From an uncultured Alphaproteobacteria bacterium (GTDB lineage: Bacteria > Electryoneota > RPQS01), in NCBI GenBank assembly GCA_964530625.1, contig CAZHAK010000012.1, forward strand, positions 8,654-72,653: a DNA stretch of 64,000 nt. The letters are read 5' to 3'. Positions 1,247 to 64,000 of this stretch are shown one piece after another (the stretch's first letter is position 1; each line of letters starts with the position of its first letter). The translations under genes were made by a program, and so were the position numbers. The notes beneath the pieces are model-generated. The model ran no database searches. It worked only from the letters and a program-made list of their open reading frames with translations, and was not told the DNA's origin.

Positions 1247-2409
1247 GCCTTTCTCCCGGTTAACAATACCACATATCTCTCCGGCGGCAGGTGTCCGCCG
1301 GGCACGTTAGCCAGCGCGATTAGACCCGCAGTGGACGCAGGCAGGACGCTCAATCCTTCCTGCTCTTTAAGTTTTTTTGCAAAGGACATCATGGCGCGGT
1401 CTGTCGCGTTGGCCGCCCAGCCGTTGGTGGAGTACATGGCGTCGAGCGCGATGTCGCCGTCAATCGAGTGCCAGTTCACGAGTGGTTCATTCACCGGAGT
1501 TTCGCGAATTTTTTCCGGTGACAAATCTTCGCATGTCTTCGCTCCACGCAAGAACGCTTGCACGACCGGATTCATCCCATGCGAGGAACCGCCCACCATA
1601 CGCGGAACGTGCGACGTTTTGCCGCGACGGTACAAACTCAAGAATCCTTTGTAAATTCCCGCGAGCGTCGTCGCATTGGAAACCGGAACGGCCATCGCCG
1701 CCGGAGCGTCGCGCAATGCGTCGTAAATTTCAAACGCGATTTCACCGTAAGCTTTTAGCTGCAGAGCGGTGTTGGCGCCGCCCGGGTTCGCGTCGTAATA
1801 TTCATTCTTCTCGGCCAACTCGCTTGAGGCCCGCACCGCACCTTCATAGTCGGTATCAATGCGCACGATCTCCGCATTGAATCGCAGCATTTCAGGTATG
1901 CGTCCGGAGTGGAACTTTGCGGGCACATGGATCACGCAACGCAGTCCAGCCGTGCTGGCCGCAAAAGCCATGGCGGCTCCATAGTTGCCGCACGTCGCCA
2001 CGGTAATCGTATCGTAACCGCGGCGGATCGCATCCATCGCCTGCGCGAAGGCAATTCTGTCCTTCTGCGTTCCCGTCGGATTCCCGCCTTCGAACTTCAA
2101 GAATATCTGCCGGACGCCGATTTCCTTTTCGATATTGCGCGCACGATGAAGCGACGTGTCACCGACTTCGGAATCGAAAATATCCTCAAAGGCTTCCAAT
2201 CTCTCGTCAACTGACCTTGACAGGTCAGACGCAATCTTGTGCGCTGACGCAATTTCCGGATCAAAGGTCAGATTGGAGGAAGTGGCTCCGTCCAACAGGG
2301 GGCGAATCTCTGCCGCCTGAACTAGGGCGTGTGAAGCGCTTGTAACTTTCTCGCTGTCGCCACCGTCGTTGATTTTCATCGTATCTTTGCCCCTCTCTGC
2401 GGTCGCCAT
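1243..2409 (-). CDS. PLP-dependent enzyme of the tryptophan-synthase-beta fold (type II), threonine-synthase-like.
   Basis: Motif FEGGNPTGTQKDR, where the K is the PLP lysine as in threonine synthase GNPTGSFKDR. Start chosen at the ATG preceded by AAGGAGG with a 4-nt spacer (MATAERGKD...). The ORF track extends it to 2448. Confidence 0.7.
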   Translation of the reverse strand: MATAERGKDTMKINDGGDSEKVTSASHALVQAAEIRPLLDGATSSNLTFDPEIASAHKIASDLSRSVDERLEAFEDIFDSEVGDTSLHRARNIEKEIGVRQIFLKFEGGNPTGTQKDRIAFAQAMDAIRRGYDTITVATCGNYGAAMAFAASTAGLRCVIHVPAKFHSGRIPEMLRFNAEIVRIDTDYEGAVRASSELAEKNEYYDANPGGANTALQLKAYGEIAFEIYDALRDAPAAMAVPVSNATTLAGIYKGFLSLYRRGKTSHVPRMVGGSSHGMNPVVQAFLRGAKTCEDLSPEKIRETPVNEPLVNWHSIDGDIALDAMYSTNGWAANATDRAMMSFAKKLKEQEGLSVLPASTAGLIALANVPGGHLPPERYVVLLTGRKA

Positions 2410-2923
2410 ATGGCCTCCTTTTGACCAATTCTCTGTTCGCCTACCCAATCACTTGAAATATATAGAAATTGTGTGACTCTTGCACGGAAGAACCGCCAGA
2501 ATTGCTTCTATTTCGACTGTTCACTGTTCAGGAAATACCTGATATTAAACGAGTAAACAATGGTCAGAACCTTACGGAACAAAGACCTGCACAAGTAAGG
2601 GGTTTGTATTCAGAACACGAGAACAAGATCAACAGAACAGCAAAGCACTTTCATTGACAACCTGCTTCACACTCGTTTTGCTATCCCTGTATTGGTTAGC
2701 CACTTCAACAAATCTCGCACTGTCTAGAGCCTGTATTTCAGGAGGCTGCGGACCTGCAGTTTAGACAGGGAAAGCGCCTGTCCAAAATTAAAGTTTTACC
2801 GCTAATTTGACGATACCCCTAATGAAGGCGATTGATAAGTCTCACTGGTGATTGATGTAAACTTTGATTTTCCATAGGCTTATCCTTCGAACGGTACGTA
2901 TCGTTTAGAAAAGGAGAATCCAA

Positions 2924-3133
2924 ATGGATGCTTCAGGAATTTCAACCGGTTCCAACATTGCTTCGATTGTGCAAAAGGCGACGAGCGAAGCTCCGGCCAC
3001 TGCTCCAAAGCAGGCCGAGGCTCCTCAGCAGTCCTATTTGTCGCAGCTTGAGCGACTGGGCGCCGATCATCCGCTGACCAAGTTCCTTGGAGGATTTTGG
3101 TCGCAACAGCAGCAAGTGGATGTGACGGTCTAA
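2924..3133 (+). CDS. Small hypothetical protein, 69 aa (MDASGISTGSNIASIVQKATSEAP...), low-complexity and Q-rich at the C-terminus.
   Basis: AGGAG sits 8 nt upstream of the ATG. An intrinsic terminator lies about 30 nt after the stop. The gene is isolated in an AT-richer ~1 kb gap. Confidence 0.45.
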   Translation: MDASGISTGSNIASIVQKATSEAPATAPKQAEAPQQSYLSQLERLGADHPLTKFLGGFWSQQQQVDVTV

Positions 3134-3159
3134 CACGGTTTCCTCTCAACCCCGAGAGA

Positions 3160-3196
3160 CGAAAAGCCCCGCGAGAACTTGCGGGGCTTTTCAGTT
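3160..3196 (+). terminator. Rho-independent terminator: GC hairpin gccccgc...gcggggc followed by TTTTCAGTTT.
   Basis: Inverted repeat plus T-run directly after the small ORF. Confidence 0.6.
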
Positions 3197-3420
3197 TCAC
3201 AAAAGAAATGTTTTTAAAGGCAATGTTGTCAAATAATTGTTTTTTATGTTTTTGGAATCAATAACACTGGACAAGCACACTACCTCCTGTCGGAAACGCA
3301 CTTGACACTCAGTGACCGCAAACGTACCTTGACAAGGGTACTTGGCTCTTCTTTGATCTTAATGAGTTTGGACTCGGTGCAAGTTTCTTTTTTTGGATCG
3401 CAGGAAGCACTTGCTTCCAA

Positions 3421-3435
3421 CAAAAAAAAAAAAAG
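3421..3435. repeat. Homopolymeric A tract (A13; c then 13 a) about 65 nt upstream of the 3501 gene start.
   Basis: Seen directly: c aaaaaaaaaaaaa g. Confidence 0.9.
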
Positions 3436-3500
3436 TAACTTAGGCTGTCTGCGGTCGCCAGACATTTTTGGGTGGGATATTCAAATCAAGGAGAACGGCC

Positions 3501-3908
3501 ATGAAGTTTAACAGCGCAAAGAAACTCGCATATGTCGGTTTGATTGTAGTAGCCACAGTTTGGATTCTGCAAGACGGGTTCGCCCTAAACATCGTCCACA
3601 CCCACACCGCAAAAGGGTGGCTAAATCAAGAATTTGAAGTTACGACTCCTCAGACCGTTATCATGGAAGGTAAGGCACCTTCAAGCGGCACGCTTCGCGT
3701 CATGCTTGACCGTTTAGGTATGGTTAGAGTGGCTGAGTTTGATATTCAGAATGGGCAATGTAGATCGGACAACATAGGCGAACTAAGTTCTCATCTCTAT
3801 GATTTTTCTTCAAGAGTGACGAACTATGGTTCAGGCACAGGAAAGTCATGCTTGCGAAGCCCGACCGTTTATTCGCAGTGCAGCTGTGGTGGTGGGCAAG
3901 GTAGCTAA
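3501..3908 (+). CDS. Hypothetical secreted or membrane-anchored Cys-containing protein, 135 aa. N-terminal hydrophobic segment KKLAYVGLIVVATVWIL.
   Basis: ATG with AAGGAG 7 nt upstream. The track's 3468 start is a TTG extension. Confidence 0.5.
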   Translation: MKFNSAKKLAYVGLIVVATVWILQDGFALNIVHTHTAKGWLNQEFEVTTPQTVIMEGKAPSSGTLRVMLDRLGMVRVAEFDIQNGQCRSDNIGELSSHLYDFSSRVTNYGSGTGKSCLRSPTVYSQCSCGGGQGS

Positions 3909-3949
3909 TCACATGATGGGGCGTTTGCGACCCCGCCCCTAGAATTCTA

Positions 3950-5608
3950 ATGATAATCATCGCATCAATCTTAATCGCCTTGGTTGTAACTCAATCAGCT
4001 CGCCCAACAATTATAGTTGTAGAAGCTGGAGAGAGCATCCAAATCGCATTAGCTTCATCAATCACTGGCGATACAGTCCTTGTTCAACCCGGCGATTATC
4101 ATGAGAGCCTTCGACTTCCAAACCACTCAGTTACACTTGCGGGGAGCTATCTATTTTCATCGGACACGATGGATATTCGCGAAACGACGCTCTTTCCTGA
4201 CAGCGTGTCACTGGACACGAATAGCTGCATAGTAGTTACTTCCGGCAATCAGATATGCCATCGCGTTGTTGGCCTAACCCTTAAAGGCGGAAAGGGTACT
4301 CAAACAAATATTTTTAATAATCAAAAGAGCGGCGGCGGGGTTTATGCCAGAAATTCTTGTGTTACAATCGAATTCTGTAGAATCCTGGATTGTAAGACAA
4401 CATTCGGCGGTGGAATTGCCGCGATTGGACCAAGCTTTGAGGTTCGCTCCGGATTTGTCGAAGTCAACAATTGTTTCATTCGAGGCTGTACAGCGCAGGA
4501 AAATGGGGGCGGTTTTTTTGCGCTGAGTTGTAGCCTCGCATTTGATCACTGTGAATTAGTTAAAGATTCCTGCTTAAATTTCTGCGGAGGAATAGAGGCA
4601 AGTCAAAGCTACATACATGGAACAAACACCACCGTTGATTCGGCCTACGGTTCTTCTAGCTCTTTGGATATTAGCACCAGTGAAGTTTACTTAAATCAAT
4701 GCAGTTTTTTACACGGCACATGTATTCCCCATCCCTTATCGAACAGCTTTTTTCACATAGGGAGTAGCTCAGGTAGAGTCGCAGCATGCACGTTCAGTGA
4801 GAATTTAACGGAGTACCCAGGAGGTTCTATCATAGGCGATCCCGCACCAGAAGTAGTTGGGTGCGTTTTTGAAAGAATCACGGCAACGATTTACACAGCG
4901 ACAGTCTTGATCGGGTACGACGATAACACTCAGTTCGCATACAACATTATTCGCGATAACGTAAACATTGCGGGAGGCGCGATCCAGCCGTTTCAGAGAA
5001 CGACCGCACGCATTCATCACAACCTTATCACGGGCAATCGGTCACTGCAAGAGAATCGTCCGTCCGCGATTTTGTGCGTCTCAAACTGCAACCCAACGAT
5101 TGACTCCAATCGAATTGAAGGCAATCATGGCAGTTCAGTCGGATTCATTATTGAGTTAGGTGAACATCACTGGGACTTATCGCGGAACTGGTGGGGGCAC
5201 GAGAGCGGCCCTTACGACGCGGTACGCAATGCGGGCGGACAGGGCGACACCATTCAAACAGATTCCGTTGTCTTTGAACCTTGGCTTCTGACTCCGCCTG
5301 AAACGTCAGTTGGCATAGGGCCCATACATCCGAAACAGCCGTTAGCGAGTACTTGGGAGATTCTGGCAGTCTATCCGAATCCGTTCAACAATTCTTTCAC
5401 AGTTTCCATTGCAGGTTTTGCACGCAGCGATTTTGAGGTGAAACTCGTAGACCTACTTGGCCGCCAGGTCGCTTCCATCCATAGCGGCTCACTAACCGGG
5501 ACATCTCTTCGTTACGATGCCGCCACGCAGCTTGCAACTGGACTATACTTTCTCGTCGCACAGGACAGCCGATCCGTTAGCGTTAAGAAAGTAGTCTTTC
5601 TAAAGTAA
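3950..5608 (+). CDS. Right-handed parallel beta-helix repeat protein (NosD/pectate-lyase-like) with a C-terminal T9SS (Por) sorting domain.
   Basis: N-terminal signal-like MIIIASILIALVVTQSA. Many G/N/C-rich beta-helix repeats. C-terminal AVYPNPFNNSFTVSI...KKVVFLK matches the Por_Secre_tail pattern. Confidence 0.65.
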   Translation: MIIIASILIALVVTQSARPTIIVVEAGESIQIALASSITGDTVLVQPGDYHESLRLPNHSVTLAGSYLFSSDTMDIRETTLFPDSVSLDTNSCIVVTSGNQICHRVVGLTLKGGKGTQTNIFNNQKSGGGVYARNSCVTIEFCRILDCKTTFGGGIAAIGPSFEVRSGFVEVNNCFIRGCTAQENGGGFFALSCSLAFDHCELVKDSCLNFCGGIEASQSYIHGTNTTVDSAYGSSSSLDISTSEVYLNQCSFLHGTCIPHPLSNSFFHIGSSSGRVAACTFSENLTEYPGGSIIGDPAPEVVGCVFERITATIYTATVLIGYDDNTQFAYNIIRDNVNIAGGAIQPFQRTTARIHHNLITGNRSLQENRPSAILCVSNCNPTIDSNRIEGNHGSSVGFIIELGEHHWDLSRNWWGHESGPYDAVRNAGGQGDTIQTDSVVFEPWLLTPPETSVGIGPIHPKQPLASTWEILAVYPNPFNNSFTVSIAGFARSDFEVKLVDLLGRQVASIHSGSLTGTSLRYDAATQLATGLYFLVAQDSRSVSVKKVVFLK

Positions 5609-5625
5609 GCATTTGCACAATCATA

Positions 5626-5657
5626 AAAGCCCCGCGATAGCTCGCGGGGCTTTTTAA
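5626..5657. terminator. Bidirectional intrinsic terminator (aaaagccccgcgatagctcgcggggcttttta). It ends the plus-strand T9SS gene and the minus-strand ribosomal cluster after rplQ.
   Basis: Perfect 9-bp GC stem flanked by an A-run and a T-run. Confidence 0.7.
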
Positions 5658-5672
5658 TCTAAGCTTTGTCTC

Positions 5673-6104
5673 TTATGCCGCGGCCTTCTTACTCTTCTTG
5701 GCCTTCTTCTCGTCGGCGGCGGGTGTGGCTGCTGCGGCTTGGACGCCTTCGTAGCCTACCAGCTCGATAATCGCGATGGGAGCGGCGTCACCGCGGCGGA
5801 CACCCATCTTAATGATGCGTGTGTATCCACCCGGACGATCGGCGTTCTTGGGGCCGATTTCGCTGAACAGCATTTGCAGGATCGCAGGCTTCGTGCAGAA
5901 GCGCGCAACCAAACGGCGCGACGCGACCGAATCCGCCTTAGCCTTGGTGATTAGGCGTTCGGCAAAGGGGCGAAGCTCTTTCGCTTTGGCTATGGTCGTC
6001 TTGATCCGCTTGTGCTCAAAGAGGTCTTGCGCCATGTTGATCATCAACGCCTTTTTATGGCTGGACGTTCGCGAAAGCTGGCGTCCTTTATTTAAGTGTC
6101 TCAT
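5673..6104 (-). CDS. rplQ: 50S ribosomal protein L17, with an Ala/Lys-rich C-terminal tail.
   Basis: Sequence MRHLNKGRQLSRTSSHKKALM... is typical of L17. It is the last gene of the alpha operon. Confidence 0.9.
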   Translation of the reverse strand: MRHLNKGRQLSRTSSHKKALMINMAQDLFEHKRIKTTIAKAKELRPFAERLITKAKADSVASRRLVARFCTKPAILQMLFSEIGPKNADRPGGYTRIIKMGVRRGDAAPIAIIELVGYEGVQAAAATPAADEKKAKKSKKAAA

Positions 6105-7093
6105 TTCTTATCGAAGTCCACAGAGAGATATTTTTCCACGTCCATGCCGAAATGCAGTGACTTGGTCTTCAGAATTTCATTCAGTTCGACGAGTGACTTC
6201 CGGCCAAAATTTTTGAAGCGCAGCATCTCGTTTTCGTCACGGCGCACGAGATCCGCAATCGTGCGAATCTTGGCTTCCTTCAAACAGTTCGCGCTGCGAA
6301 CGGACAGTTCGAGATCCTCGACCGGCTTGCGCAAGAGCTTACGAATTTGCAGAGTCTCTTCGTCGATATCTTCATCGTCGTCCTTTTCGGGCTTCATGTC
6401 GAAGCTGATGAAGAGCGCAATATGGTCACGTAAGACGCGACCAGCGTTTGAGAGAGCGTCTTCCGGAGTCACTGAACCGTCGGTCCAGATTTCCAGAATC
6501 AGTTTTTCGTAGTCCGTGCGCTGACCGACACGAGTATTCTCGATAGTGTAGGTCACATTGCGGATCGGCGAATAAATTGCGTCCAAGGGAATTGTGCCGA
6601 TGGGTGCGTCCGACGGGCGGTTTTCTTCCGCCGGAACGTAGCCGCGGCCCTTCTTGATGGCCAATTCCATCTTGAGTTCAGACTCGCTGTTCAACGTCGC
6701 AATCAGATGATCGGGATTCAGAATCTCGAAATCATTGTTGCCGATTTGCAAATCGCGCGCGGTAAACTCTTTGGGACCTTTCAGCTGGACATAAATTTTG
6801 TCCGGCTTCTTGTTCAAGAGTTTGAAGCGCACACCCTTCAGGTTCAGGATCATCTCGGTAACGTCTTCAGACACACCGGGAATCGTCGAGAACTCGTGCA
6901 GGACTCCGTCCACTTTAATCGTGACAATTGCCGCGCCCTGCAGAGTTGAAATCAGGACACGACGCAGGCTATTACCAATGGTGACTCCATAGCCACGTTC
7001 AAGGGGTTGGACAATGAATTTGCCATAGGTATCCGTATGGGTAGATTCATCAATCTCCACCGCTTCCGGCATTTGGAAGTTCAAACCGTTCAT
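6101..7093 (-). CDS. rpoA: DNA-directed RNA polymerase subunit alpha.
   Basis: MNGLNFQMPEAVEIDESTHTDTYGKFIVQPLERGYG... matches RpoA. Start taken at the internal ATG (MNGLNF); the ORF track extends to 7210. Confidence 0.9.
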   Translation of the reverse strand: MNGLNFQMPEAVEIDESTHTDTYGKFIVQPLERGYGVTIGNSLRRVLISTLQGAAIVTIKVDGVLHEFSTIPGVSEDVTEMILNLKGVRFKLLNKKPDKIYVQLKGPKEFTARDLQIGNNDFEILNPDHLIATLNSESELKMELAIKKGRGYVPAEENRPSDAPIGTIPLDAIYSPIRNVTYTIENTRVGQRTDYEKLILEIWTDGSVTPEDALSNAGRVLRDHIALFISFDMKPEKDDDEDIDEETLQIRKLLRKPVEDLELSVRSANCLKEAKIRTIADLVRRDENEMLRFKNFGRKSLVELNEILKTKSLHFGMDVEKYLSVDFDKK

Positions 7094-36836: not shown

Positions 36837-36869
36837 GATGTTTCAGTTGTGAGGCTGTCCTCAGTCTTG

Positions 36870-36942
36870 CACGGCAGGAGGGACTCGAACCCCCAACAAC
36901 CGGTTTTGGAGACCGGGACTCTACCAATTGAGCTACTGCCGT
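36870..36942 (-). tRNA. tRNA-Trp, anticodon CCA.
   Basis: Hand-folded: acceptor ACGGCAG/CTGCCGT, anticodon loop CTCCAAA. CCA tail not encoded. Confidence 0.85.
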
Positions 36943-36983
36943 GTACCGCTGCCGCGACGAGGCTTCGGCACGGCGGCTTAAAT

Positions 36984-37022
36984 GGGAACAGAAGGCCGGA
37001 GCCATAAAAGGTGGCTCCGGCC
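36984..37022 (-). terminator. Hairpin (ggccggagcca...tggctccggcc) plus a weak T-run downstream of tuf.
   Basis: Inverted repeat seen directly. Confidence 0.4.
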
Positions 37023-37040
37023 TATCCGGAAAGAGTGTAC

Positions 37041-38231
37041 TTACTCGATGATCTTAGTTACACGTCCCGCGCCGACGGTCTTGCCGCCTTCACGAATAGC
37101 GAAACGCAAACCTTCGTCCATCGCGATGTCGGTAATCAAGTCAACGGTGATTGCCGTGTTGTCGCCGGGCATAATCATCTCGGTGCCTTCACTCAACGTA
37201 ACCGAACCGGTAACGTCGGTCGTGCGGAAGAAGAACTGCGGGCGGTAATTATTGAAGAACGGCGTGTGTCGGCCACCTTCGTCTTTGGACAGGACGTAAA
37301 CCTGCGCTTCGAACTTCTTGTGCGGCTTGATCGAACCGGGCTTACAGAGCACCATTCCACGCTCGAGATCGTCTTTTTCCACACCGCGCAAAAGCAATCC
37401 TGCGTTGTCGCCAGCGAAGCCTTCATCGAGGAGCTTACGGAACATTTCTACACCCGTTACAACCGTCTTCTTGTGCTGTCCCAACCCGACGATTTCAACT
37501 TCCTCACCAACCTTAACCTTGCCGCGCTCAATACGGCCCGTACCGACGGTACCGCGACCGGTAATCGAGAACACGTCTTCGATCGGCATCAGGAAAGGCT
37601 TATCGAGCGCACGTACCGGTTCCGGAATGAACTCATCCACGGCGTCCATCAATTCCATGATGCACTTGGTCTTTTCGGGATCCTGCAAGTTTGACAGCGC
37701 TTCCAACGCGCTGCCGCGGATCACCGGAAGCGTGTCGCCGGGATATTCGTACGAGGACAGCAATTCACGAACTTCAAGCTCAACCAAGTCGAGCAATTCA
37801 GGATCGTCAACTTGGTCGCACTTGTTCAGGAACACGACCAGCGCGGGCACGTTCACCTGACGAGCGAGCAGAACGTGCTCACGCGTCTGGGGCATGGGGC
37901 CGTCCGCGGCGGACACGACGAGAATCGCGCCGTCCATTTGGGCAGCACCGGTGACCATGTTCTTAATATAGTCGGCGTGGCCCGGGCAGTCCACGTGCGC
38001 GTAGTGGCGCTTTTCAGTTTCGTACTCAGCGTGGTGGACGTTAATCGTGACGCCGCGCTCTTTTTCTTCGGGCGCGTTGTCGATATCGTCATAGTTACGG
38101 GCTTGTGCCAATCCCTTAGCGGCGAGCACTTGCGTGATAGCGGCGGTGAGAGTGGTTTTGCCATGGTCGACGTGACCAATAGTGCCGATGTTAACATGCG
38201 GCTTGTTGCGTTCAAATTTGGCTTTTGCCAT
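37041..38231 (-). CDS. tuf: Elongation factor Tu, the single copy in this window.
   Basis: [15 protein letters not shown]. 396 aa. Confidence 0.95.
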
Positions 38232-38320
38232 TGCCGGACAACCTCCTTAGGGGTTCAGCAGTTCTATGTTTATTGTATTCAAAGATTCACAGGAATTACC
38301 CGAGAAGCCGGATAACACGT

Positions 38321-38396
<76 letters not shown>

Positions 38397-38439
38397 AAGA
38401 ACAGGAGTGCGCGTTTGGTGGGCGCAACCACGTCATCAG

Positions 38440-38512
38440 AGCGGGCGACGAGACTCGAACCCGCGACCCTCAGCTTGGAAGGCTGATGCTCTACCAACTG
38501 AGCTACGCCCGC
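38440..38512 (-). tRNA. tRNA-Gly, anticodon TCC.
   Basis: Acceptor GCGGGCG, anticodon loop CTTCCAA. Confidence 0.85.
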
Positions 38513-38622
38513 ATAAGAAACGAAATGAAGAAGCAGCCTAAAAAGGGTGCACCCCTCTTGGGTGACCACCTCTAAGGCCACTAAGAACAAAGACTAACGT
38601 GGTCTATTTCGAGAAGATACCC

Positions 38623-38707
38623 GGTGGTGGCAGATGGATTTGAACCACCGTAGGCGTTTGCCAGCAGATTTACAGTCTGCCCCCTTTAGCCACTCGGGCA
38701 TGCCACC
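38623..38707 (-). tRNA. tRNA-Tyr, anticodon GTA, with a long variable arm.
   Basis: Acceptor GGTGGCA, anticodon loop CTGTAAA, 85 nt. Confidence 0.85.
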
Positions 38708-38748
38708 AAGCAAGTCTTTGGGATTTTAGCTACAACCGAATGTAATAG

Positions 38749-38821
38749 AGCTGGCGACAGGACTTGAACCCGCAACCTGTTGATTACAAATCAACTGCTC
38801 TACCAGTTGAGCTACGCCAGC
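38749..38821 (-). tRNA. tRNA-Thr, anticodon TGT.
   Basis: Acceptor GCTGGCG, anticodon loop TTTGTAA. Confidence 0.85.
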
Positions 38822-51955: not shown

Positions 51956-54900
51956 CTAAGTCACGAGCTCTTTCAACTCAACGTGGCCAACCAAGACTTC
52001 TACCGGGTGACCCCAATCGCGAATGCGGGGATCTCTGGTCAACAAAACTACTTGTCGCTTCGCGGCAATCTGTTCGATTAACTGCCGCGATATGTTCAGA
52101 TGATGATCATCCAATTGTGATAACACATCATCCCAGAAAATCGGAGCACGCTCCGCCACGGAAGTCGCGGAAAGCAGTCCGGCGATTAAACATAGCGCCA
52201 CAAGTTCCGAGACGCCGCGCGACTGCGATTTCAACGCTCGTCGTTGCCCATCGTCCATCACCATGATCCATTCGCTCCCACTCCACGCCACCGACGCGAA
52301 TTTTTCTCCGATTGCCTCAAACACCACGCCTTGAATTATCGCCAGCACCGACTCGCTCGCCTGATCACGCTGTTCAGCCAATTCCGTGGTCAGCACATAG
52401 CACATTGAGCGCGCCGCTTGCATGCTCTTCTCGATTTCCTCAATTTTCGCTTGCGCAGACGCACGCTCGTTCTGCAGTTGCTGATCGGACGGAAAGTTTT
52501 GAACTTGAGCCTGCAAGCCGGGCAGATCAAGCTTTCCAACCTCGTCAGAAAGTCGGTCGGCAAGCTCCAAAGAAGCGTGAGCTTGTGCCGTTAACTCCCG
52601 CATTTGTTCACGGTACTTGACCAACCCTTCTTCCCGTGAGCCGATGGTCGCAAAGAGCGGGTCCAGTTCCTGAATGCGTGCGGTAACCTGAGCCAATTCC
52701 TCTTCGATCATACTTGTTCGCGCGGACAACTCTTGCGGAGACCGCTCAGCACTGAGTTTCGCTTTAGCTTCGCGCAGTCCGGCCTGAAGTGAGTCGCTCT
52801 CTCGAATCGCGGCCAGAATTTCATTTGCTCCAAGCTTCGAAAATGCGCCGCCCACGGATTCATCCAGCGACTCCATTCCTGAAATCACGTCGCGCAATTG
52901 CTGTCGCACGGCCTCCATATCCGGAGTCTTCGCTAGTTCCGATTCGACGCGACTGATTGAAGTCGTCAATTCCTGACGGCGCTTTTTGCGCTCGTTCAGA
53001 GTTTCTATTTCATTGCGCTCAAGAGTTGCAATCTCTTCGCGTAACCGCTGAGACTCAAGTTCCATCTCCGCGCTGCGTGCATGAGTTTCGTCCTCTCTGT
53101 CAAACGAGGTCAGTGCAGCATTCGCCTTCGTCAGATTGGCCGTCAAAGTCCGATAATCGGTCACCCGTCTGCGAATGTCTTCGCGCTCGAGTTTTCGCAA
53201 TACGGCGGGCACAGGGTCATCCGCCGGAGCGTCAACTATTCTTTCGCACATATTCGCCAGAGTCTGTTTGCGTTCGGTCAACCTGACAAATTCATTCCAA
53301 CGCGCTAGCGCGGACTCACGATCAGAAAACATTGTGAACATCTGCAAATCTCTACGCAATGCTTCCCGTTCCGAAAGCGCCGACTGCTGCAGATGCTGCA
53401 ACGTCTCTATCTTGCGGACATGGTCATCCGCGTCTTCCTCGTAGTTTGGCGAAGTCAACCGGCCGATGGCATACCCGGCTCCTCCTCCAATCACCGCGCC
53501 GAAGAAACCAACGTCCCAGCCCAAAGTTAGACCACTCGGCACACCTGCCACGGCCGCACCCAGCACAGACATAATCACTTTCGTACCGGCTCCAGAGCCT
53601 TTGATCTGCAACTCGACGACTTTGCGGCGCAAGTCGGCCAACTCGGTTTCGCGAGCAGTCACCGCCTCCTGCAGGGCGAAGAGCTTTTCTATCCGCGCCG
53701 GTGTATCCGTTGAAAGTGTGAAAAATTCTGCAAACTCTTTGATCAGTCTCTCGTTAACACGCTCAAGTTCCGCTTGTTGCTTCCCCGTATCGACTTGTTG
53801 CCTGTCGTCAGAGTCGTTCTCGTCTGAGTCAATATACCGCTCGAGCGCCAGCCATTCGTCCGGACCCAGCGCGGCAAGCTCTCCATATTTTTCCGTGCGT
53901 TGCTTTTCCAAACCGTCGCGCTGTCTGAGTAAATCAATCCTCGTGCGTGATAGATCTTTTGAGATACCCTCCAATTCTGCAAGCCTCACATACAACGGTT
54001 GCGTCACCGGCCCCGGCGACTCGCTTGCGGACATCTCTGAAATTTCCTTCTGAAGTCGACTGATGGTCTCTGAGAGCTCGGCAGATTTTCCTTCGTTCGC
54101 TCTTAGCTGCGCCGCAAGAGTATTGCGCGCTTCAGATAACCTCAGATAGTCTTGTGCAAGCTGCTCCGCGTTGTCGCCCAGCTCCCGTGTGATAGAGTGT
54201 ACCGCTTCGAGCCGCTCCTGCAATTGCGCGAATTGACTCCGCGCGGATTCAACGCTGTTCCATGAACTCCGAAGTTCAGCCGCCCAAAGCTCTAAATGAA
54301 CACACCGTTCAGCCAGCTCGATCTTGCTGTCAAGATCTTTCTTCTCCTCGGACGAAACATTCGCCGCCAATTCCGCATCCGTGATCCGCTCTTGCAACTC
54401 GCCGCTCTTCTCTTCCGCGACACGTAGTTTTTCGCGCAGCGCATGGGAGTTCAATAACTGCTGCTCGATCCGCGAGACATCAGCGTGCAAGTTCAGGAGT
54501 CGCGATTGCCCATCACCTTCCGTCAATGATTTAAGTCGGCGTTGCCATACATCAAATTCTCGCTGTAGCGGCACACTAGTCATCTCCGCTGCCCAGTCCA
54601 AAAGTTCTTGCTCAGGTGCCTTCCACTCTCCGTTCAAAACAAAATTCGGCAACGCTTCAGGCATCGTTTCAACCGGCAGGAACAGATCCGTAAACGGGCT
54701 GTATTGTCCCAAACTATCCGCTTGTTCCGAATGTTGCCTTACCTGACCGCTCTCAGTATCCAATGACCACTCGCGCTTGATCGGCCCCAGCTGTCCGACC
54801 ACCGTCACGCGCAGAAGCCCCGCCTTGAACAAACTATGCCGCAAGCTCTCAGTATGGTTGGGCAATGTCGCCGCCATCACTGCCGAACACAAGAGCGTCT

Positions 54901-55057
54901 TTCCGCCGCCGTTTCCCGCAGCAAAAACATTCAGGCCATCGCCTCGTAATTTCCACGTTACCTGCTCAGCCCCAAGCAGGCTCGGCTTGCCGGACAATTG
55001 AACGAACTGGAGAGAGAAAATGGGAGGGTGTCCTGACTGTCGCGGCATTCGGTTCAC
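51956..55057 (-). CDS. 1033-aa coiled-coil AAA/ABC-type ATPase of the SbcC/Rad50/YhaN type. N-terminal P-loop GNGGGKT, C-terminal Walker B (IFWDD) and signature-like region, and a central Gly-zipper hydrophobic segment.
   Basis: Motifs seen in the translation. Long heptad-rich middle region. Confidence 0.6.
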   Translation of the reverse strand: MNRMPRQSGHPPIFSLQFVQLSGKPSLLGAEQVTWKLRGDGLNVFAAGNGGGKTLLCSAVMAATLPNHTESLRHSLFKAGLLRVTVVGQLGPIKREWSLDTESGQVRQHSEQADSLGQYSPFTDLFLPVETMPEALPNFVLNGEWKAPEQELLDWAAEMTSVPLQREFDVWQRRLKSLTEGDGQSRLLNLHADVSRIEQQLLNSHALREKLRVAEEKSGELQERITDAELAANVSSEEKKDLDSKIELAERCVHLELWAAELRSSWNSVESARSQFAQLQERLEAVHSITRELGDNAEQLAQDYLRLSEARNTLAAQLRANEGKSAELSETISRLQKEISEMSASESPGPVTQPLYVRLAELEGISKDLSRTRIDLLRQRDGLEKQRTEKYGELAALGPDEWLALERYIDSDENDSDDRQQVDTGKQQAELERVNERLIKEFAEFFTLSTDTPARIEKLFALQEAVTARETELADLRRKVVELQIKGSGAGTKVIMSVLGAAVAGVPSGLTLGWDVGFFGAVIGGGAGYAIGRLTSPNYEEDADDHVRKIETLQHLQQSALSEREALRRDLQMFTMFSDRESALARWNEFVRLTERKQTLANMCERIVDAPADDPVPAVLRKLEREDIRRRVTDYRTLTANLTKANAALTSFDREDETHARSAEMELESQRLREEIATLERNEIETLNERKKRRQELTTSISRVESELAKTPDMEAVRQQLRDVISGMESLDESVGGAFSKLGANEILAAIRESDSLQAGLREAKAKLSAERSPQELSARTSMIEEELAQVTARIQELDPLFATIGSREEGLVKYREQMRELTAQAHASLELADRLSDEVGKLDLPGLQAQVQNFPSDQQLQNERASAQAKIEEIEKSMQAARSMCYVLTTELAEQRDQASESVLAIIQGVVFEAIGEKFASVAWSGSEWIMVMDDGQRRALKSQSRGVSELVALCLIAGLLSATSVAERAPIFWDDVLSQLDDHHLNISRQLIEQIAAKRQVVLLTRDPRIRDWGHPVEVLVGHVELKELVT

Positions 55058-61716: not shown

Positions 61717-61995
61717 ATGTCCACATTTGAAGAAACTATGGAAAACAGCCGGGTCTTTCTGACTTACAGTTTGGCAATGACGATGCTCGGAAAATCCGCG
61801 CAGATTCTGGCCGAGCGCGGCGCAGATGCCAAAGCGATGAGCTTTGTGACCACGGGAATCGAGCTTCTGGCCAAGCAGCTCCGGGACTATGCGGATAGCA
61901 AGGATCTCGATGACGGTGCTGAGAAAGAACTCGACAGCCTGTGCAAGATGCTGGATATCCAGCGGGCCAACGGCGGAGCCGCTCCCTCCGCGTAA
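61717..61995 (+). CDS. Small hypothetical helical protein, 92 aa.
   Basis: AAGGAG 7 nt upstream of the ATG. Intrinsic terminator 20 nt after the stop. Confidence 0.5.
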   Translation: MSTFEETMENSRVFLTYSLAMTMLGKSAQILAERGADAKAMSFVTTGIELLAKQLRDYADSKDLDDGAEKELDSLCKMLDIQRANGGAAPSA

Positions 61996-62017: not shown

Positions 62018-62062
62018 AAGAAGCCGGTGACACTGAATGTGCACCGGCTTCTCTATTCTTAT
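62018..62062 (+). terminator. Rho-independent terminator: gaagccggtg...caccggcttc, followed by TCTATTCTTATT.
   Basis: Inverted repeat plus T-rich tail. Confidence 0.6.
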
Positions 62063-62179: not shown

Positions 62180-62428
62180 TCAATCCTTCTTCATCTTGCG
62201 CAATTTACGCTCCAGCAGAAGCAGTACCTTTTGCGCGACCTTATTGGGGGTGGTGCGGCCGTTCTCCCAGCGGTTTACCGTGGCGAACGTCACACCGATT
62301 TCGTGCGCAAAATTCTCCTGAGTCATGTTTAGGTCTTCGCGCAGTTGTTTTATCCGTGCTCCGTCGAAATCGTCCGGGTGCGGGCGTGAGGAGCGAATCA
62401 TGTTACGGGCGATGGTCGTGGCGTCCAT
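62180..62428 (-). CDS. XRE-family helix-turn-helix transcriptional regulator, 82 aa.
   Basis: LNMTQENFAHEIGVTFATVNRWENGRTTP HTH signature. Confidence 0.8.
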   Translation of the reverse strand: MDATTIARNMIRSSRPHPDDFDGARIKQLREDLNMTQENFAHEIGVTFATVNRWENGRTTPNKVAQKVLLLLERKLRKMKKD

Positions 62429-63045
62429 TATGGAAATCTCCGGTTAACTTGAGTAGTTGTGTTATAACACTTAGCAAGCCTTATGCCACAACGATTAGCT
62501 CCAATAATTTAGCGTCCTACTTCTTCTATATTGCCGCGAAGCAACTGTTTCTTACGTGTAAACGGGGGATAAGGAGTCGGCAAAAATAGCCCTGGGCAAG
62601 AAACTTTTGTTACCCACGGAGTGCCGCTTGACTTTCTCCCACCCCAAAGCTACCTTATCTATGTGATATCCCGACCCCAACCATTGTTTCTACCCCTCTT
62701 CCCATTTCGACCGGTCATCCGGGGGCAGAATCCAGGCTTCCTCGTAGCTGTCCACAGAATTGTGAGGGATAGGGGAGTTTACTACCCTGTTGCAGCCGCA
62801 CCCGCCGCGGTTGCCCCAACGCACCCATCACAGGGTCGAGCCTCCGGCTCGACAAACCACCGAGAATTATCTCACCCGGAACGAGTTCGCGGTCGCGCCT
62901 TCCGGGGCCTCCTCTCCCCCACTGTTTCAACTACTTCCTAAGTTGCGACAGGATAGCTGGCCTGTTCATTGAGTGGTAAGTCTCTTGATGACCAGTGATT
63001 ATGGGGAAATTAACGTGACTCAACCACAAAACACAAGGCAAAAAA

Positions 63046-64000
63046 ATGATACAGAGGAAGACTCTACTCACGAAAGAATCATTGGCAGAGTTGGCCTCGG
63101 CAAACGAGCCGCCGTGTCTTTCGCTTTACCAGCCGACCCATCGGCACAGTCCCGCAAATCAGCAGGATGTAATACGCTTTCGCAATCTCGTCCGGGAGCT
63201 TGAGAAATCCCTCCGACAGAAGTACTCGGACCTCGAAACCCGAAATATTCTGGAGCCGCTTCAAGCCCTCACCCTCGAAACTGACTTTTGGAACCATACA
63301 CTGGACGGATTGGCCGTGCTAAGAGGGCCAAGTGTTTTTCACGTATACAGGCTTCAGCGACCAGTCCCCGAGCTAGCTATCGTTGCCGACAGTTTTCACA
63401 CCAAACCTTTGCGAAGGTTTTTGCAAACGGTCGGTCGCTTCCAGGTTCTGGGTTTGAGCCAAAGCGAGATCCAGCTTTTTGAGGGAAACCGCAACGACCT
63501 TGATGAGATTGAATTGGCACCAGGTGTTCCGAGGACATCCACTGAGGCCCTCGGTGAAACACTGAACAAGTCACATCTGACCGTCTCGTCTTATGGCGGA
63601 ATCGGCCAGGGGAGCACACCGATGCATCACGGCCACCGCGGAAGACAGGAAGCGGTCAAGGCCGATACGGAGAAGTTTTTTCGAGCCATCGATCGCGCGG
63701 TGCTTGAGCACCATTCCCGACCGTCCGGTCTGCCCTTGATCCTCGCGGCATTACCGGAGCATCATCATCTTTTCCAAAGTGTCAGCCATAACCAGTTTCT
63801 GTGGCCGGAGGGAATCGATATCAATCCGCTTGACCTGCCGATCGACGAATTTCGAGCACGAGCCTGGCAAGTCGTCGAGCCGCGATATCAGACACAACTA
63901 GTAGAACTTGCCGACGAGTTTGCCGTTGCGAAGTCTAAGGGGCTCGGCAGTGACGACATAGCGCAAGCAGCTCAGGCGGCCTCCGAGGGGCGTGTCGCGA
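63046..64000 (+). CDS. Open-ended ORF of at least 318 aa that runs off the right edge and is not in the supplied ORF track. Hypothetical protein with a GGQ-like GGIGQG loop and His clusters; candidate eRF1/Pelota-like (baeRF-type) fold.
   Basis: Hand-translated from 63046 to 64000 with no stop. In-frame TGA at 63016. AAGG 7 nt upstream of the ATG. Translation begins MIQRKTLLTKESLAELASANEPPCLSLYQPTHRHSPANQQDVIRFRNLVREL... and contains SSYGGIGQGSTPMHHGHRGR. Confidence 0.55.
   Translation, partial: MIQRKTLLTKESLAELASANEPPCLSLYQPTHRHSPANQQDVIRFRNLVRELEKSLRQKYSDLETRNILEPLQALTLETDFWNHTLDGLAVLRGPSVFHVYRLQRPVPELAIVADSFHTKPLRRFLQTVGRFQVLGLSQSEIQLFEGNRNDLDEIELAPGVPRTSTEALGETLNKSHLTVSSYGGIGQGSTPMHHGHRGRQEAVKADTEKFFRAIDRAVLEHHSRPSGLPLILAALPEHHHLFQSVSHNQFLWPEGIDINPLDLPIDEFRARAWQVVEPRYQTQLVELADEFAVAKSKGLGSDDIAQAAQAASEGRVA

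What the first reader, a model, noticed from the sequence alone, without database searches (positions are those of the whole stretch)
63046..64000. Unlisted open-ended gene with a GGQ-like G-I-G-Q-G loop next to an XRE regulator and a long leader
A clean ORF of at least 318 codons starts at 63046 and runs off the window, so it is missing from the six-frame track. Its product has the N-terminal pattern LSLYQPTHR...P.NQQDVIRFRNL, a Gly-Gly-Ile-Gly-Gln-Gly loop (SSYGGIGQGSTP) reminiscent of the GGQ peptidyl-tRNA-hydrolysis loop of release-factor/Pelota/Vms1-like folds, and two His clusters (HHGHRGR, EHHHLF). I could not assign it to a family from memory. Bacterial eRF1-like (baeRF) proteins are poorly characterised and have been proposed to act in ribosome rescue or conflict systems. 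The gene sits behind a 617-nt unusual leader and is divergent from an XRE-family regulator, an arrangement typical of tightly controlled accessory modules.
Basis: partly seen in the sequence, partly recalled or inferred. Interest (0 to 1): 0.65.

Follow-up and report, generated by a model that had tools for sequence, protein, structure and literature searches.

The report
Balon-family ribosome hibernation factor gene
The open-ended ORF is the first 318 of 387 codons of a gene for a Balon-type ribosome hibernation factor, a bacterial eRF1-like protein that plugs the ribosomal A site during dormancy; it is not a GGQ-type peptide-release enzyme, so it is an ordinary new member of a family described between 2019 and 2024.

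Summary
The ORF at 63046-64000 (+) is real. Identical contigs show the full gene is 387 codons. The protein is a strong Pfam baeRF_family3 member (E=3e-47), the same Pfam family as Balon, the Psychrobacter ribosome hibernation factor. It aligns end-to-end with Balon (PDB 8rd8_B; family profile E=4e-45). A confident AlphaFold model (pLDDT 93) matches the Balon and Msmeg1130 ribosome complexes best, ahead of aRF1/eRF1/Pelota.

The "GGQ-like" reading fails. The Gln of G-I-G-Q-G is kept in only 25 of 77 orthologues (Gly is commoner), and there is no GGQ or NIKS. The loop sits where Balon has its non-catalytic loop.

It aligns with Balon's decoding-centre "HP" segment.

The XRE neighbour is absent from all 80 orthologous loci. 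The 617-nt "leader" has no Rfam match, no significant fold and no promoter hit.

Orthologues usually have an HPF/RaiA gene about 30 nt downstream (62 of 80). They often sit inside an N-type ATPase operon. This copy has neither.

Verdict: a new member of a known kind, most likely a non-catalytic A-site blocker.

The parts
63046..64000 (+). Coding sequence, first 318 of 387 codons, of a Balon-family (baeRF_family3) ribosome hibernation factor homologue. The remaining 69 codons and the stop lie 207 nt beyond the window (L001 10001-11164).
   Evidence: (P0001, 100% identical, 387 aa). Pfam PF18845 E=3e-47. NCBIfam NF052287 E=3e-50, end-to-end. Balon 8rd8_B E=4e-15 for the single sequence and 4e-45 for the family profile.
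63115..63186 (+). N-domain motif, residues 24-47 (C-L-S-L-Y-Q-P-T-H-R-H-S-P-A-N-Q-Q-D-V-I-R-F-R-N). It is the best conserved stretch of the family and aligns with Balon's V-S-I-F-V-K-T-H-R-E-H-P-A-N-D-Q-D-P-I-A-L-K-N. That segment contains the only His-Pro dipeptide of Balon's N domain, so it is the presumed decoding-centre 'HP motif'.
   Evidence: Alignments. Conservation 0.90 over residues 24-47 in 77 orthologues. Family-wide S26 95%, Y28 91%, T31 85%, R33 78%, P36 76%. The equivalence to the HP motif is inferred, because the paper gives no residue numbers.
63436..63993 (+). Middle (RNase-H-like, eRF1 M-type) domain, residues 131-316. It matches the full length of the Pfam baeRF_family3 model.
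   Evidence: residues 131-316 against model positions 1-168 of 168. Model secondary structure.
63589..63645 (+). Gly/His-rich loop, residues 182-200 (S-Y-G-G-I-G-Q-G-S-T-P-M-H-H-G-H-R-G-R), just before the long Arg-bearing helix (residues 197-227). It is topologically the aeRF1 GGQ-loop / Balon 'lasso loop' position.
   Evidence: Model: low-confidence loop followed by helix 197-227. It aligns with Balon's T-T-G-D-G-G-S-D-R-S-A-N loop. In the clade G184, G185, G187, M193, H194, H195, G198 and G199 are each 88-96% conserved and the length is fixed in 71 of 77, but Q188 is present in only 25 of 77. In the wider family the loop varies in length (23-50 aa) and sequence.
63757..63774 (+). Second His cluster, E238-H-H-H-L-F243, at the start of an M-domain helix. 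H239 and F243 are invariant in the clade.
   Evidence: H239 77/77, H240 71/77, F243 77/77; also H222 66/77 and H223 70/77. It is not conserved in Balon itself. Its function is unknown.
62429..63045 (.). 617-nt intergenic region between the divergent XRE gene and the hibernation-factor gene. No functional element was detected apart from the palindrome listed below.
   Evidence: Rfam: no match at E<=1. RNA fold z = -1.17. No sigma-70-like promoter. No tRNA. No relics of the usual neighbour genes. No similar DNA in any orthologous locus.
62459..62470 (.). Perfect 12-bp palindrome GTGTTATAACAC, 31-42 nt upstream of the XRE start codon. It is a candidate operator for the XRE protein's own promoter. 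There is no second copy near the hibernation-factor gene.
   Evidence: A single exact copy in 64 kb. A function is inferred only from position and symmetry.
62180..62428 (-). Divergent neighbour: an 82-aa XRE/Cro-type helix-turn-helix protein. It is not shown to be functionally linked to the hibernation-factor gene.
   Evidence: Pfam HTH_3 E=3e-12. Homologues are found only on the window's own contigs, in none of the 80 orthologous loci.

Best explanation
The gene encodes a Balon-type ribosome hibernation factor. This is a three-domain bacterial aeRF1 homologue that occupies the A site of idle (and possibly still mRNA/tRNA-loaded) 70S ribosomes during starvation or stress.

Proposed mechanism:
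- The N domain contacts the decoding centre through the conserved PTHR..P segment, without reading mRNA.
- The C-terminal Pelota-like domain faces the factor-binding site, where Balon contacts EF-Tu.
- The net effect is reversible translational shut-down and ribosome protection.

What is shown here: family membership, fold, motif conservation, lack of a conserved catalytic Gln, and the HPF linkage of the orthologues. What comes from the literature: the ribosome-binding mode and translation inhibition (Balon, Msmeg1130, Rv2629, Synechocystis Balon). What is inferred: that this particular protein does the same.

In this genome, probably an uncultured Calditrichota-like bacterium, the gene is a stand-alone, monocistronic copy detached from its usual HPF partner.
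For: Sequence family:
- Pfam baeRF_family3, 161 bits, E=3e-47. Balon itself belongs to the same Pfam family at 106 bits.
- End-to-end match to NCBIfam 'AOC03_06830 family ribosome hibernation factor', E=3e-50.
- phmmer to Balon chain 8rd8_B over residues 12-387, E=4e-15. A profile of 101 diverse relatives hits Balon at 4e-45 over its full length, against 9e-5 for Msmeg1130 and 0.03 for Rv2629, both of which are experimentally validated A-site binders.

Structure:
- AlphaFold2 model with mean pLDDT 93.2 and pTM 0.88.
- Foldseek top hits are 8rdv/8rd8/8rdw (Balon-ribosome) at E~1e-23, then Msmeg1130 at 1e-18, aRF1 at 1e-12, eRF1 at 1e-10 and Pelota at 1e-7.

Motifs and integrity:
- No GGQ or NIKS string. 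Gln188 is not conserved.
- The N-terminal motif is shared with Balon.
- R213 is conserved, and position 210 is Arg or Lys, in the helix after the loop, as Burroughs & Aravind describe for non-catalytic baeRF-1 proteins (PMC6514570).
- The window's copy keeps 154 of 162 columns that are at least 90% conserved, so it is an intact, typical member.

Context and literature:
- 62 of 80 orthologues have an HPF/RaiA gene (Pfam Ribosomal_S30AE) directly downstream. This is the association reported for Balon (PMC10901736).
- Balon binds the A site. Msmeg1130 and Rv2629 inhibit translation 15-fold in vitro. A Synechocystis homologue only 30% identical to Balon sits on hibernating ribosomes (bioRxiv 10.64898/2026.07.03.736309).
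Against: - No experiment exists on this protein or, to my knowledge, on this particular 387-aa clade, unless the Synechocystis protein belongs to it (not checked).
- It scores 172 bits against an NCBIfam equivalog cut-off of 330, so it is a distinct subfamily and not an equivalog of Psychrobacter Balon.
- Its PTC-facing loop is about 11 residues longer than Balon's and, unlike most baeRF loops, is fixed in length and strongly conserved (G-G-x-G...M-H-H-G-x-G-G). This hints at a specific role that Balon does not explain.
- Balon's literal His-Pro is Ser35-Pro36 here. Orthologues have His/Arg-Pro.
- No HPF/RaiA gene lies within the 64-kb window or the 10 kb beyond it.
- EF-Tu binding, the bL27 trap and ribosome binding cannot be tested with these tools.
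Confidence: 0.85

Rival explanations
1. It is a catalytically active release/rescue factor. The G-G-I-G-Q-G loop would act like the GGQ motif and hydrolyse peptidyl-tRNA on stalled ribosomes.
For: The loop is at the topological position of the aeRF1 catalytic loop: strands of the M domain, then the loop, then a long helix. The M-domain start is anchored to eRF1 residues 146-156, but that alignment is weak (hhalign probability 0.2). Gly184-Gly185 are 91-95% conserved in the clade. Burroughs & Aravind allow that a few baeRF-1 families, notably family 10, keep a catalytic Gln.
Against: Gln188 occurs in 25 of 77 orthologues while Gly occurs in 31 of 77. It occurs in 15 of 28 close homologues. In 101 diverse family members it is not among the six commonest residues. 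The Gln is separated from the Gly-Gly by two residues and lies 8 residues before the helix, not abutting it as in eRF1. There is no GGQ string. The nearest solved relatives, Balon and Msmeg1130, are non-catalytic and are excluded from the catalytic centre. A residue essential for catalysis would not be replaced by Gly, His, Ala or Arg in proteins 60-70% identical.
Confidence: 0.04
2. It is the effector of an XRE-controlled accessory, toxin-antitoxin or conflict module. The divergent HTH protein would repress a translation-blocking 'toxin' through the long leader.
For: The divergent arrangement with an XRE/MqsA-like HTH protein. Weak similarity of the HTH to regulators in PADLOC. Over-expressing an A-site blocker would be growth-inhibitory: the Balon paper reports faster growth without Balon. 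The gene is flanked by unusually long non-coding DNA.
Against: No homologue of the XRE gene is found at any of the 80 orthologous loci. The protein has no PADLOC hit. The only palindrome sits next to the XRE start, 575 nt from the gene. There is no integrase or other mobile-element gene nearby, and base composition is not anomalous. The surroundings are housekeeping genes: folC, mutM, rlmN, and a tuf/tRNA cluster further upstream.
Confidence: 0.05
3. It is a functionally specialised Balon subtype. Its conserved Gly/His loop and His clusters would give it a distinct activity or trigger (for example pH, metal or energy-state sensing) tied to the N-type ATPase operon in which its orthologues usually reside.
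For: The loop is fixed in length (71 of 77) and is about as conserved as the rest of the protein (0.76 against 0.79), with G-G-x-G and M-H-H-G-x-G-G each 88-96% conserved. This contrasts with the 'striking lack of constraint' reported for baeRF loops. H239 is invariant, and H222, H223 and H240 are 86-92% conserved. At least 25 of 80 orthologous loci lie in or beside an N-type ATPase operon, some with PPK2 (9 of 80 loci overall). Synechocystis Balon contacts the PTC through residues unlike Psychrobacter's.
Against: This rests purely on correlation. The window's copy is not next to any ATPase or HPF gene. Conserved loops can simply reflect specific rRNA contacts. No structural proximity of the His residues could be computed here.
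Confidence: 0.12
4. It is an orphaned, decaying copy left after loss of its operon partners.
For: It lacks the HPF partner present in 62 of 80 orthologues. It is flanked by 617 and 639 nt of non-coding DNA. It deviates at eight otherwise conserved positions, including G198R in the loop.
Against: The reading frame is intact at the canonical 387 codons. 95.1% of strongly conserved columns are retained, against a clade median of 96.0%, ranking 24th from the bottom of 76. The identical protein is found on at least 24 contigs read from the public assemblies. No relics of partner genes remain in the flanks.
Confidence: 0.03

Closest known systems
Balon (AOC03_06830) of Psychrobacter urativorans, PDB 8RD8/8RDV/8RDW (Helena-Bueno et al., Nature 2024, PMC10901736)
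   Same: Same Pfam family, baeRF_family3. End-to-end alignment. Best Foldseek match. Same three-domain aeRF1-like architecture. Shared N-terminal THR..P.N.QD motif. No NIKS or GGQ. C-domain region with a two-strand hairpin (model strands 329-332 and 339-341). HPF/RaiA as usual genomic partner in the orthologues.
   Different: Only about 20% identity in the structural alignments. Below the NCBIfam equivalog cut-off (172 against 330 bits). The PTC-side loop is about 11 residues longer and Gly/His-rich (G-G-x-G...M-H-H-G-x-G-G) instead of G-D-G-G-S-D-R-S. Conserved His clusters are absent from Balon. The literal His-Pro is Ser-Pro in this copy. No adjacent HPF in this genome.
Mycobacterial Balon homologues Msmeg1130 (8V9J/8V9L) and Rv2629 (8V9K)
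   Different: Much more distant in sequence than Balon: family profile E=9e-5 and 0.03, 14-16% identity. Hypoxia-regulon context rather than HPF/N-ATPase.
baeRF-1 clade of the aeRF-1 superfamily (Burroughs & Aravind 2019, PMC6514570)
   Same: The protein is a full three-domain baeRF-1 member with the two-strand insert in the Pelota-like domain, Arg-bearing helix after the loop, HPF neighbourhood in orthologues and wide lateral spread, all as described.
   Different: Those authors report poorly conserved, length-variable catalytic loops in the widespread families. In this 387-aa clade the loop is fixed in length and well conserved, though without the Gln.
Archaeo-eukaryotic release factor aeRF1/eRF1 and Pelota/Dom34
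   Different: No NIKS stop-codon motif, no GGQ, no conserved Gln. Not detectable by sequence profile: eRF1 hhalign probability 0.2. Expected to be non-catalytic and independent of mRNA.
Synechocystis Balon homologue on LrtA-bound hibernating 70S (bioRxiv 10.64898/2026.07.03.736309)
   Same: A divergent Balon (30% identical to Psychrobacter's) seen in the A site of hibernating ribosomes together with an HPF-family protein. A cyanobacterial orthologue of the window's clade exists: L072, Synechococcus, 60% identity, with HPF downstream.
   Different: Whether the Synechocystis protein belongs to this 387-aa clade was not tested. No EF-Tu interaction was seen there.

Membership tests
Pfam PF18845 baeRF_family3 (bacterial aeRF1-like, family 3) | Score above the curated gathering threshold (31.5 bits) over the M-domain model | tested here: met
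   161.4 bits, E=3e-47, model positions 1-168 of 168. Full-length protein 160.6 bits.
Balon-type ribosome hibernation factors | Three-domain aeRF1-like architecture (N domain, RNase-H-like M domain, Pelota-like C domain), 360-420 aa | tested here: met
Balon-type ribosome hibernation factors | Absence of the aeRF1 NIKS and GGQ motifs, i.e. no conserved catalytic Gln | tested here: met
   No GGQ or NIKS string. Gln188 in 25 of 77 orthologues, 15 of 28 close homologues, and not among the six commonest residues in 101 diverse members.
Balon-type ribosome hibernation factors | N-terminal 'HP motif' insertion that binds the decoding centre (A1492/A1913) | tested here: inconclusive
   The segment P-T-H-R-H-S-P-A-N-Q-Q-D aligns with Balon's K-T-H-R-E-H-P-A-N-D-Q-D and is the most conserved part of the family. 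However, the papers give no residue numbers, and the literal His-Pro is Ser35-Pro36 here (His or Arg in most orthologues). rRNA contact is not testable.
Balon-type ribosome hibernation factors | Lasso-like loop in place of GGQ that wraps A2602, and a 'bL27 trap' loop | not testable with these tools
   A loop exists at the equivalent position (residues about 175-196, low pLDDT) and aligns with Balon's loop. It is longer and differs in sequence. Neither the bL27-trap residues nor the rRNA contacts can be assigned without a ribosome complex.
Balon-type ribosome hibernation factors | Beta-hairpin insertion in the C-terminal domain facing EF-Tu | tested here: inconclusive
   The model has a two-strand element at 329-332 and 339-341 within the C domain. 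It aligns with Balon residues about 307-325 and fits the 'two beta-strand insert' of baeRF-1. EF-Tu binding is untestable.
Balon-type ribosome hibernation factors | Genomic association with HPF/RaiA or other stress genes | tested here: not met
   No HPF in the window or the 10 kb beyond it. Neighbours are an XRE gene, folC, mutM and secreted proteins. In orthologues the feature is met: HPF directly downstream in 62 of 80. This is a typical, not an obligatory, feature.
NCBIfam NF052287 (AOC03_06830 family ribosome hibernation factor, equivalog) | Whole-protein score of at least 330 bits | tested here: not met
   171.8 bits, although aligned over model positions 2-361 of 361, E=3e-50. Balon scores 506.7. 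The protein is therefore a homologue and subfamily relative, not an NCBI-defined equivalog.
Class-I release factor-like peptidyl-tRNA hydrolases (aeRF1, Vms1/VLRF-1, baeRF-1 family 10) | Invariant Gln in a Gly-rich catalytic loop of constrained length | tested here: not met
   The loop is Gly-rich and of constrained length in the clade, but the Gln is not conserved.
Anti-phage defence / toxin-antitoxin module | Match to a known defence protein family, and a conserved partner gene | tested here: not met
   No PADLOC hit for the protein. The XRE neighbour is found at 0 of 80 orthologous loci.

The most novel reading that the evidence does not exclude
The 387-aa clade to which this gene belongs may be a functionally distinct Balon subtype. 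It is 59-73% identical across more than 15 phyla. It has a length-fixed G-G-x-G...M-H-H-G-x-G-G loop and conserved His clusters that Balon lacks. It is usually paired with a short HPF and is often inserted between atpA and atpG of the laterally transferred N-type ATPase operon. Ribosome binding in this subtype could be coupled to cellular energy, ion or pH state, for example through His protonation or metal binding. On that reading, the window's stand-alone, XRE-adjacent copy would be a re-wired version under different control.
Probability: 0.12. Interest if true: 0.6.

Novelty: new member of a known kind. Interest (0 to 1): 0.3.

Why it matters
For annotation, a gene that every source holding it leaves unnamed or calls 'hypothetical protein' can be named a Balon-family ribosome hibernation factor homologue. 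The tempting 'GGQ-like release factor' label should be avoided.

Biologically, it adds a probable Calditrichota-like lineage to the range of organisms carrying Balon-type factors. It also gives an example of the gene separated from its HPF partner.

The wider by-product may be of more interest than the window's gene. This highly conserved clade travels with HPF inside N-type ATPase operons in at least eight phyla. I found no mention of that association in the searchable literature. It would link ribosome hibernation to an ATP-driven ion pump.

Tried and rejected
- First AlphaFold run, with 28 sequences about 70% identical: mean pLDDT 42, unusable and discarded. A second run with 101 diverse representatives succeeded.
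It was used only as a rough anchor for the start of the M domain.
- Rfam scans of the leader and of the downstream gap at E<=1: nothing. RNA folding of the leader: z = -1.17, not significant. Promoter and terminator scan: no sigma-70-like site in the leader. tRNA/tmRNA scan: none.
- Comparison of the four public contigs to look for constraint in the leader: they are essentially identical to the window, so uninformative.
- Search for relics of HPF, atpA, atpG or XFP in the two long flanks (blastx at E<=10, blastn): none. A profile HMM of 30 partner HPFs against all six-frame ORFs of the window plus extension: best E=0.07, noise.
- PADLOC for a defence-system role: no hit for the protein.
- Base-composition test for a horizontally acquired island: no anomaly.
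- Cluster look-up for source names: none. The Balon paper's supplementary tables are not held as searchable text.
- Literature searches for Balon or hibernation together with ATP synthase or N-ATPase: no papers.
Full report
**Observation.** The sequence shows an ATG at 63046, preceded by an in-frame TGA at 63016-63018, opening a frame that stays open to the last base of the window: 318 codons. It is missing from the mechanical ORF list only because that list omits ORFs that run off the end. The upstream neighbour (62180-62428, minus strand) is an 82-aa helix-turn-helix protein (Pfam HTH_3, E=3e-12), and the gap between the two start codons is 617 nt. A protein 100% identical to the fragment and 387 aa long (P0001) is in the public collections. 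It lies on at least 24 contigs. Four were fetched (L001-L004) and are identical to the window over the shared 10,955 nt, apart from one base (54566) in two of them. The gene therefore ends 207 nt past the window.

**What the protein is.** The fragment hits Pfam baeRF_family3 (PF18845) at 161 bits, E=3e-47, covering the whole model. Weaker hits go to sister baeRF families. NCBIfam returns a single family, 'AOC03_06830 family ribosome hibernation factor'. The full-length protein matches it at E=3e-50 over model positions 2-361 of 361, but at 172 bits it is below the 330-bit equivalog cut-off. AOC03_06830 is Balon, the hibernation factor found on Psychrobacter urativorans ribosomes (PMC10901736). 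Its PDB chain (8rd8_B, still labelled 'methyl-accepting chemotaxis protein') is the only significant sequence match in the PDB: E=4e-15 over residues 12-387. I rebuilt Balon's sequence from that alignment. It is itself a baeRF_family3 member at 106 bits and scores 507 bits on the NCBIfam model. A profile of 101 diverse relatives of the window's protein (31-73% identity, alignment A2 from the representative search) finds Balon at E=4e-45 over its full length. The mycobacterial 'Balons' Msmeg1130 and Rv2629, which were shown experimentally to bind the A site and inhibit translation, score only 9e-5 and 0.03. In sequence terms this protein is much closer to founding Balon than those validated homologues are.

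**The 'GGQ-like' loop.**
- *Position.* In the model the M domain runs strands 132-137, 141-147 and 152-154, two short helices, a low-confidence loop (about 175-196), then a long helix 197-227. That helix carries R213, conserved in the family, and an Arg or Lys at position 210. This is the topology of the aeRF1 catalytic loop followed by its Arg-rich helix. The same segment aligns with Balon's loop ...T-T-G-D-G-G-S-D-R-S-A-N.... By elimination that is the 'lasso loop' which, according to the paper, replaces GGQ and wraps A2602 without reaching the catalytic centre.
- *The Gln.* It is not a conserved residue. It is Gln in 15 of 28 homologues that are at least 68% identical. In 77 orthologues from reference genomes it is Gln in 25 and Gly in 31. 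Among the 101 diverse family members the commonest states are Ala, Gly, gap, Ser, Arg and Pro. There is no GGQ or NIKS string.
- *What is conserved in the 387-aa clade.* The motif is S-Y-G-G-V-G-x-x-x-x-P-M-H-H-G-x-G-G-K. G184, G185, G187, M193, H194, H195, G198 and G199 are each 88-96% conserved, and the segment length is identical in 71 of 77. Across the wider family the loop varies from 23 to 50 residues between its anchors, and only an H-G pair stands out.
- *Conclusion.* An essential catalytic Gln would not be freely exchanged for Gly, His, Ala or Arg among proteins 60-70% identical.

**The N-terminal pattern.** This is the best conserved part of the whole family: 0.90 mean conservation in the orthologues, and family-wide S26 95%, Y28 91%, T31 85%, R33 78%, P36 76%. 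It aligns with Balon's VSIFVKTHREHPANDQDPIALKN. That segment holds the only His-Pro dipeptide in Balon's N domain, so I infer it is the 'HP motif' that binds A1492 and A1913 at the decoding centre without touching mRNA. The papers give no residue numbers, so this equivalence is an inference. In the window's protein the dipeptide is Ser-Pro (His or Arg in most orthologues).

**Is this copy functional?** It keeps 154 of the 162 columns that are at least 90% conserved among 76 orthologues: 95.1%, against a clade median of 96.0%. Its identity to the others (median 0.66) equals their identity to one another (0.67). It is an ordinary, intact member. Eight deviations include G198R in the loop.

**Surroundings.**
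- *This locus.* On the full contig the gene is monocistronic. The next genes downstream are on the opposite strand: two secreted Cys-rich paralogues, then DUF58/VWA and MoxR. It is flanked by the two longest non-coding gaps of the 21-kb locus, 617 and 639 nt. The regional median is 43 nt and the 90th percentile 375 nt, by crude ORF calling.
- *The upstream gap.* It has no Rfam match at E<=1, no significant fold (z=-1.17), no sigma-70-like promoter, no tRNA and no relic of other genes. Its one notable feature is a perfect palindrome, GTGTTATAACAC, at 62459-62470. This lies 31-42 nt from the XRE start and 575 nt from the hibernation-factor start, and occurs only once. It looks like the XRE protein's own operator.
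- *Comparative evidence.* I fetched 80 loci encoding orthologues (59-73% identical) from reference genomes spanning more than 15 phyla: Nitrospirota, Acidobacteriota, Planctomycetota, Chloroflexota, Actinomycetota, Gemmatimonadota, Cyanobacteriota, Verrucomicrobiota, Myxococcota, Spirochaetota and others. None has a homologue of the XRE gene or of the 92-aa ORF beside it. The protein has no PADLOC hit and base composition is unremarkable. The 'tightly controlled accessory module' idea therefore has no support beyond adjacency.

**What the orthologues do have.** In 62 of 80 loci a gene of 105-136 aa lies downstream, mostly about 30 nt after the stop codon. It is an HPF/RaiA-family protein (Pfam Ribosomal_S30AE, E=4e-11; TIGR00741 below cut-off). 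This is the association reported for baeRF-1 proteins and for Balon. At least 25 of the 80 loci carry at least one ATPase subunit gene within the fetched flank. In the best-resolved ones the pair sits inside an F-type ATPase operon in the order c, b/delta, alpha, [this gene], HPF, gamma, some with PPK2 (9 of 80 loci overall). A longer contig shows the full order: beta, epsilon, AtpQ (PF09527), AtpR (PF12966), a, c, b, delta, alpha, [this gene], gamma (L087). That is the atpDCQRBEFAG signature of the laterally transferred N-type ATPase (PMC2881411). Other loci have XFP phosphoketolase, aldolase, PGI or a P-type ATPase nearby. I found no paper that mentions Balon or HPF inside N-ATPase operons. 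Co-transfer with this mobile operon would explain why the protein is 60-73% identical across phyla. The window's genome carries a detached copy: no HPF or ATPase gene occurs in the 64-kb window or the 10 kb beyond it.

**Organism.** The window contains the tRNA-Thr-Tyr-Gly-Thr / tuf / tRNA-Trp cluster. Its EF-Tu is 94% identical to EF-Tu of Calditrichota MAGs and 81-85% identical to candidate division KSB1. This fits the T9SS sorting domain on a nearby protease. The source is probably an uncultured Calditrichota-like bacterium.

**Mechanism, with its basis.**
- *Established for relatives.* Balon occupies the A site of vacant and of mRNA/tRNA-bearing ribosomes. It contacts the decoding centre without mRNA, lies outside the catalytic centre, sequesters the bL27 tail, and contacts EF-Tu. 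Msmeg1130 and Rv2629 inhibit translation 15-fold. A Synechocystis homologue only 30% identical to Balon sits on LrtA-bound hibernating ribosomes and uses different residues at the PTC.
- *Shown here.* Same Pfam family, same fold, shared N-terminal motif, no catalytic Gln, HPF linkage in orthologues, and an intact gene.
- *Inferred.* This protein is a non-catalytic A-site blocker used for ribosome hibernation.
- *Probabilities.* I put about 0.85 on that, about 0.12 on a specialised variant in which the conserved Gly/His loop and His clusters (H222/H223, invariant H239, H240) add a distinct trigger or contact, and a few percent each on the hydrolase, conflict-module and decaying-orphan readings.

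**Novelty and score.** The superfamily was described in 2019 and the function in 2024. This is a new member of a known kind, in a distinct subfamily below NCBI's equivalog threshold. The finding as stated is of modest interest (0.3). Its main value is a correct name and the removal of a misleading GGQ analogy. The constrained loop of this clade and its residence in N-type ATPase operons are the parts worth following up.

Noticed in passing
Orthologous loci L005, L006, L010-L013, L022, L027, L039, L040, L064 (about 1000-6500) and L087 1-8152: The 387-aa Balon-like gene plus a short HPF gene is inserted between atpA and atpG of an N-type ATPase operon. L087 reads atpD-atpC-atpQ-atpR-atpB-atpE-atpF-delta-atpA-[gene]-atpG. 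Some loci also carry PPK2 (9 of 80 overall). At least 25 of 80 loci, from eight or more phyla, carry at least one ATPase subunit gene nearby. No mention of this was found in the searchable literature.
   Followed up: partly
L005-L084, immediately downstream of the matched gene (for example L006 5194-5523): An HPF/RaiA-family gene (105-136 aa, Pfam Ribosomal_S30AE but below the TIGR00741 cut-off) lies downstream of the stop codon, mostly about 30 nt after it, in 62 of 80 orthologous loci. It is absent from the window and from the 10 kb beyond it.
   Followed up: yes
L005-L084 (matched genes): The protein is 59-73% identical and almost always exactly 387 aa across more than 15 bacterial phyla. 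That is unusually high for a non-universal protein and suggests recent lateral spread, probably with the N-ATPase operon, under strong constraint.
   Followed up: partly
window 62459-62470: Perfect 12-bp palindrome GTGTTATAACAC, 31-42 nt upstream of the XRE gene's start codon. It is a candidate autoregulatory operator and occurs once in 64 kb.
   Followed up: partly
L001 11804-12517 (-) and 12822-13523 (-), just beyond the window end: Two tandem paralogues (55% identical, 237 and 233 aa) with signal-peptide-like N termini and many Cys residues. Neither has a Pfam or PADLOC match. A 57-nt element (84% identical) recurs after each gene, at L001 11705-11761 and 12757-12813.
   Followed up: partly
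L001 11404-11433 (+), in the 639-nt gap downstream of the gene: The only sigma-70-like promoter match in the 3-kb region (TTGACT, 18-nt spacer, TATATT; 10 of 12) points into non-coding DNA with no ORF and no Rfam hit. It could drive a small RNA or be a chance match.
   Followed up: no
window 36869-38821 (-): Classic tRNA-Thr/Tyr/Gly/Thr, then tuf (37041-38231), then tRNA-Trp. The EF-Tu is alone in its 90% cluster and is closest (94%) to Calditrichota MAGs and 81-85% to KSB1. This places the window in an uncultured Calditrichota-like lineage.
   Followed up: partly
window 51956-55057 (-): A 1033-aa coiled-coil protein with only a sub-threshold SMC_N/RecF-like match (E=6e-4). It has a P-loop-like N terminus (GNGGGKT) and is otherwise unassigned.
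   Followed up: no
window 61717-61995 (+): A 92-aa ORF called as a gene on all contigs. It has no Pfam, NCBIfam or PADLOC match and no homologue in any orthologous locus. It is separated from the XRE gene by a hairpin that looks like a bidirectional terminator (about 62020-62050).
   Followed up: no
PDB entries 8RD8/8RDV/8RDW, chain B: The molecule name of the Balon chain in the PDB sequence file is still 'Methyl-accepting chemotaxis protein', an inherited misannotation. It could mislead automated annotation of homologues such as this one.
   Followed up: no
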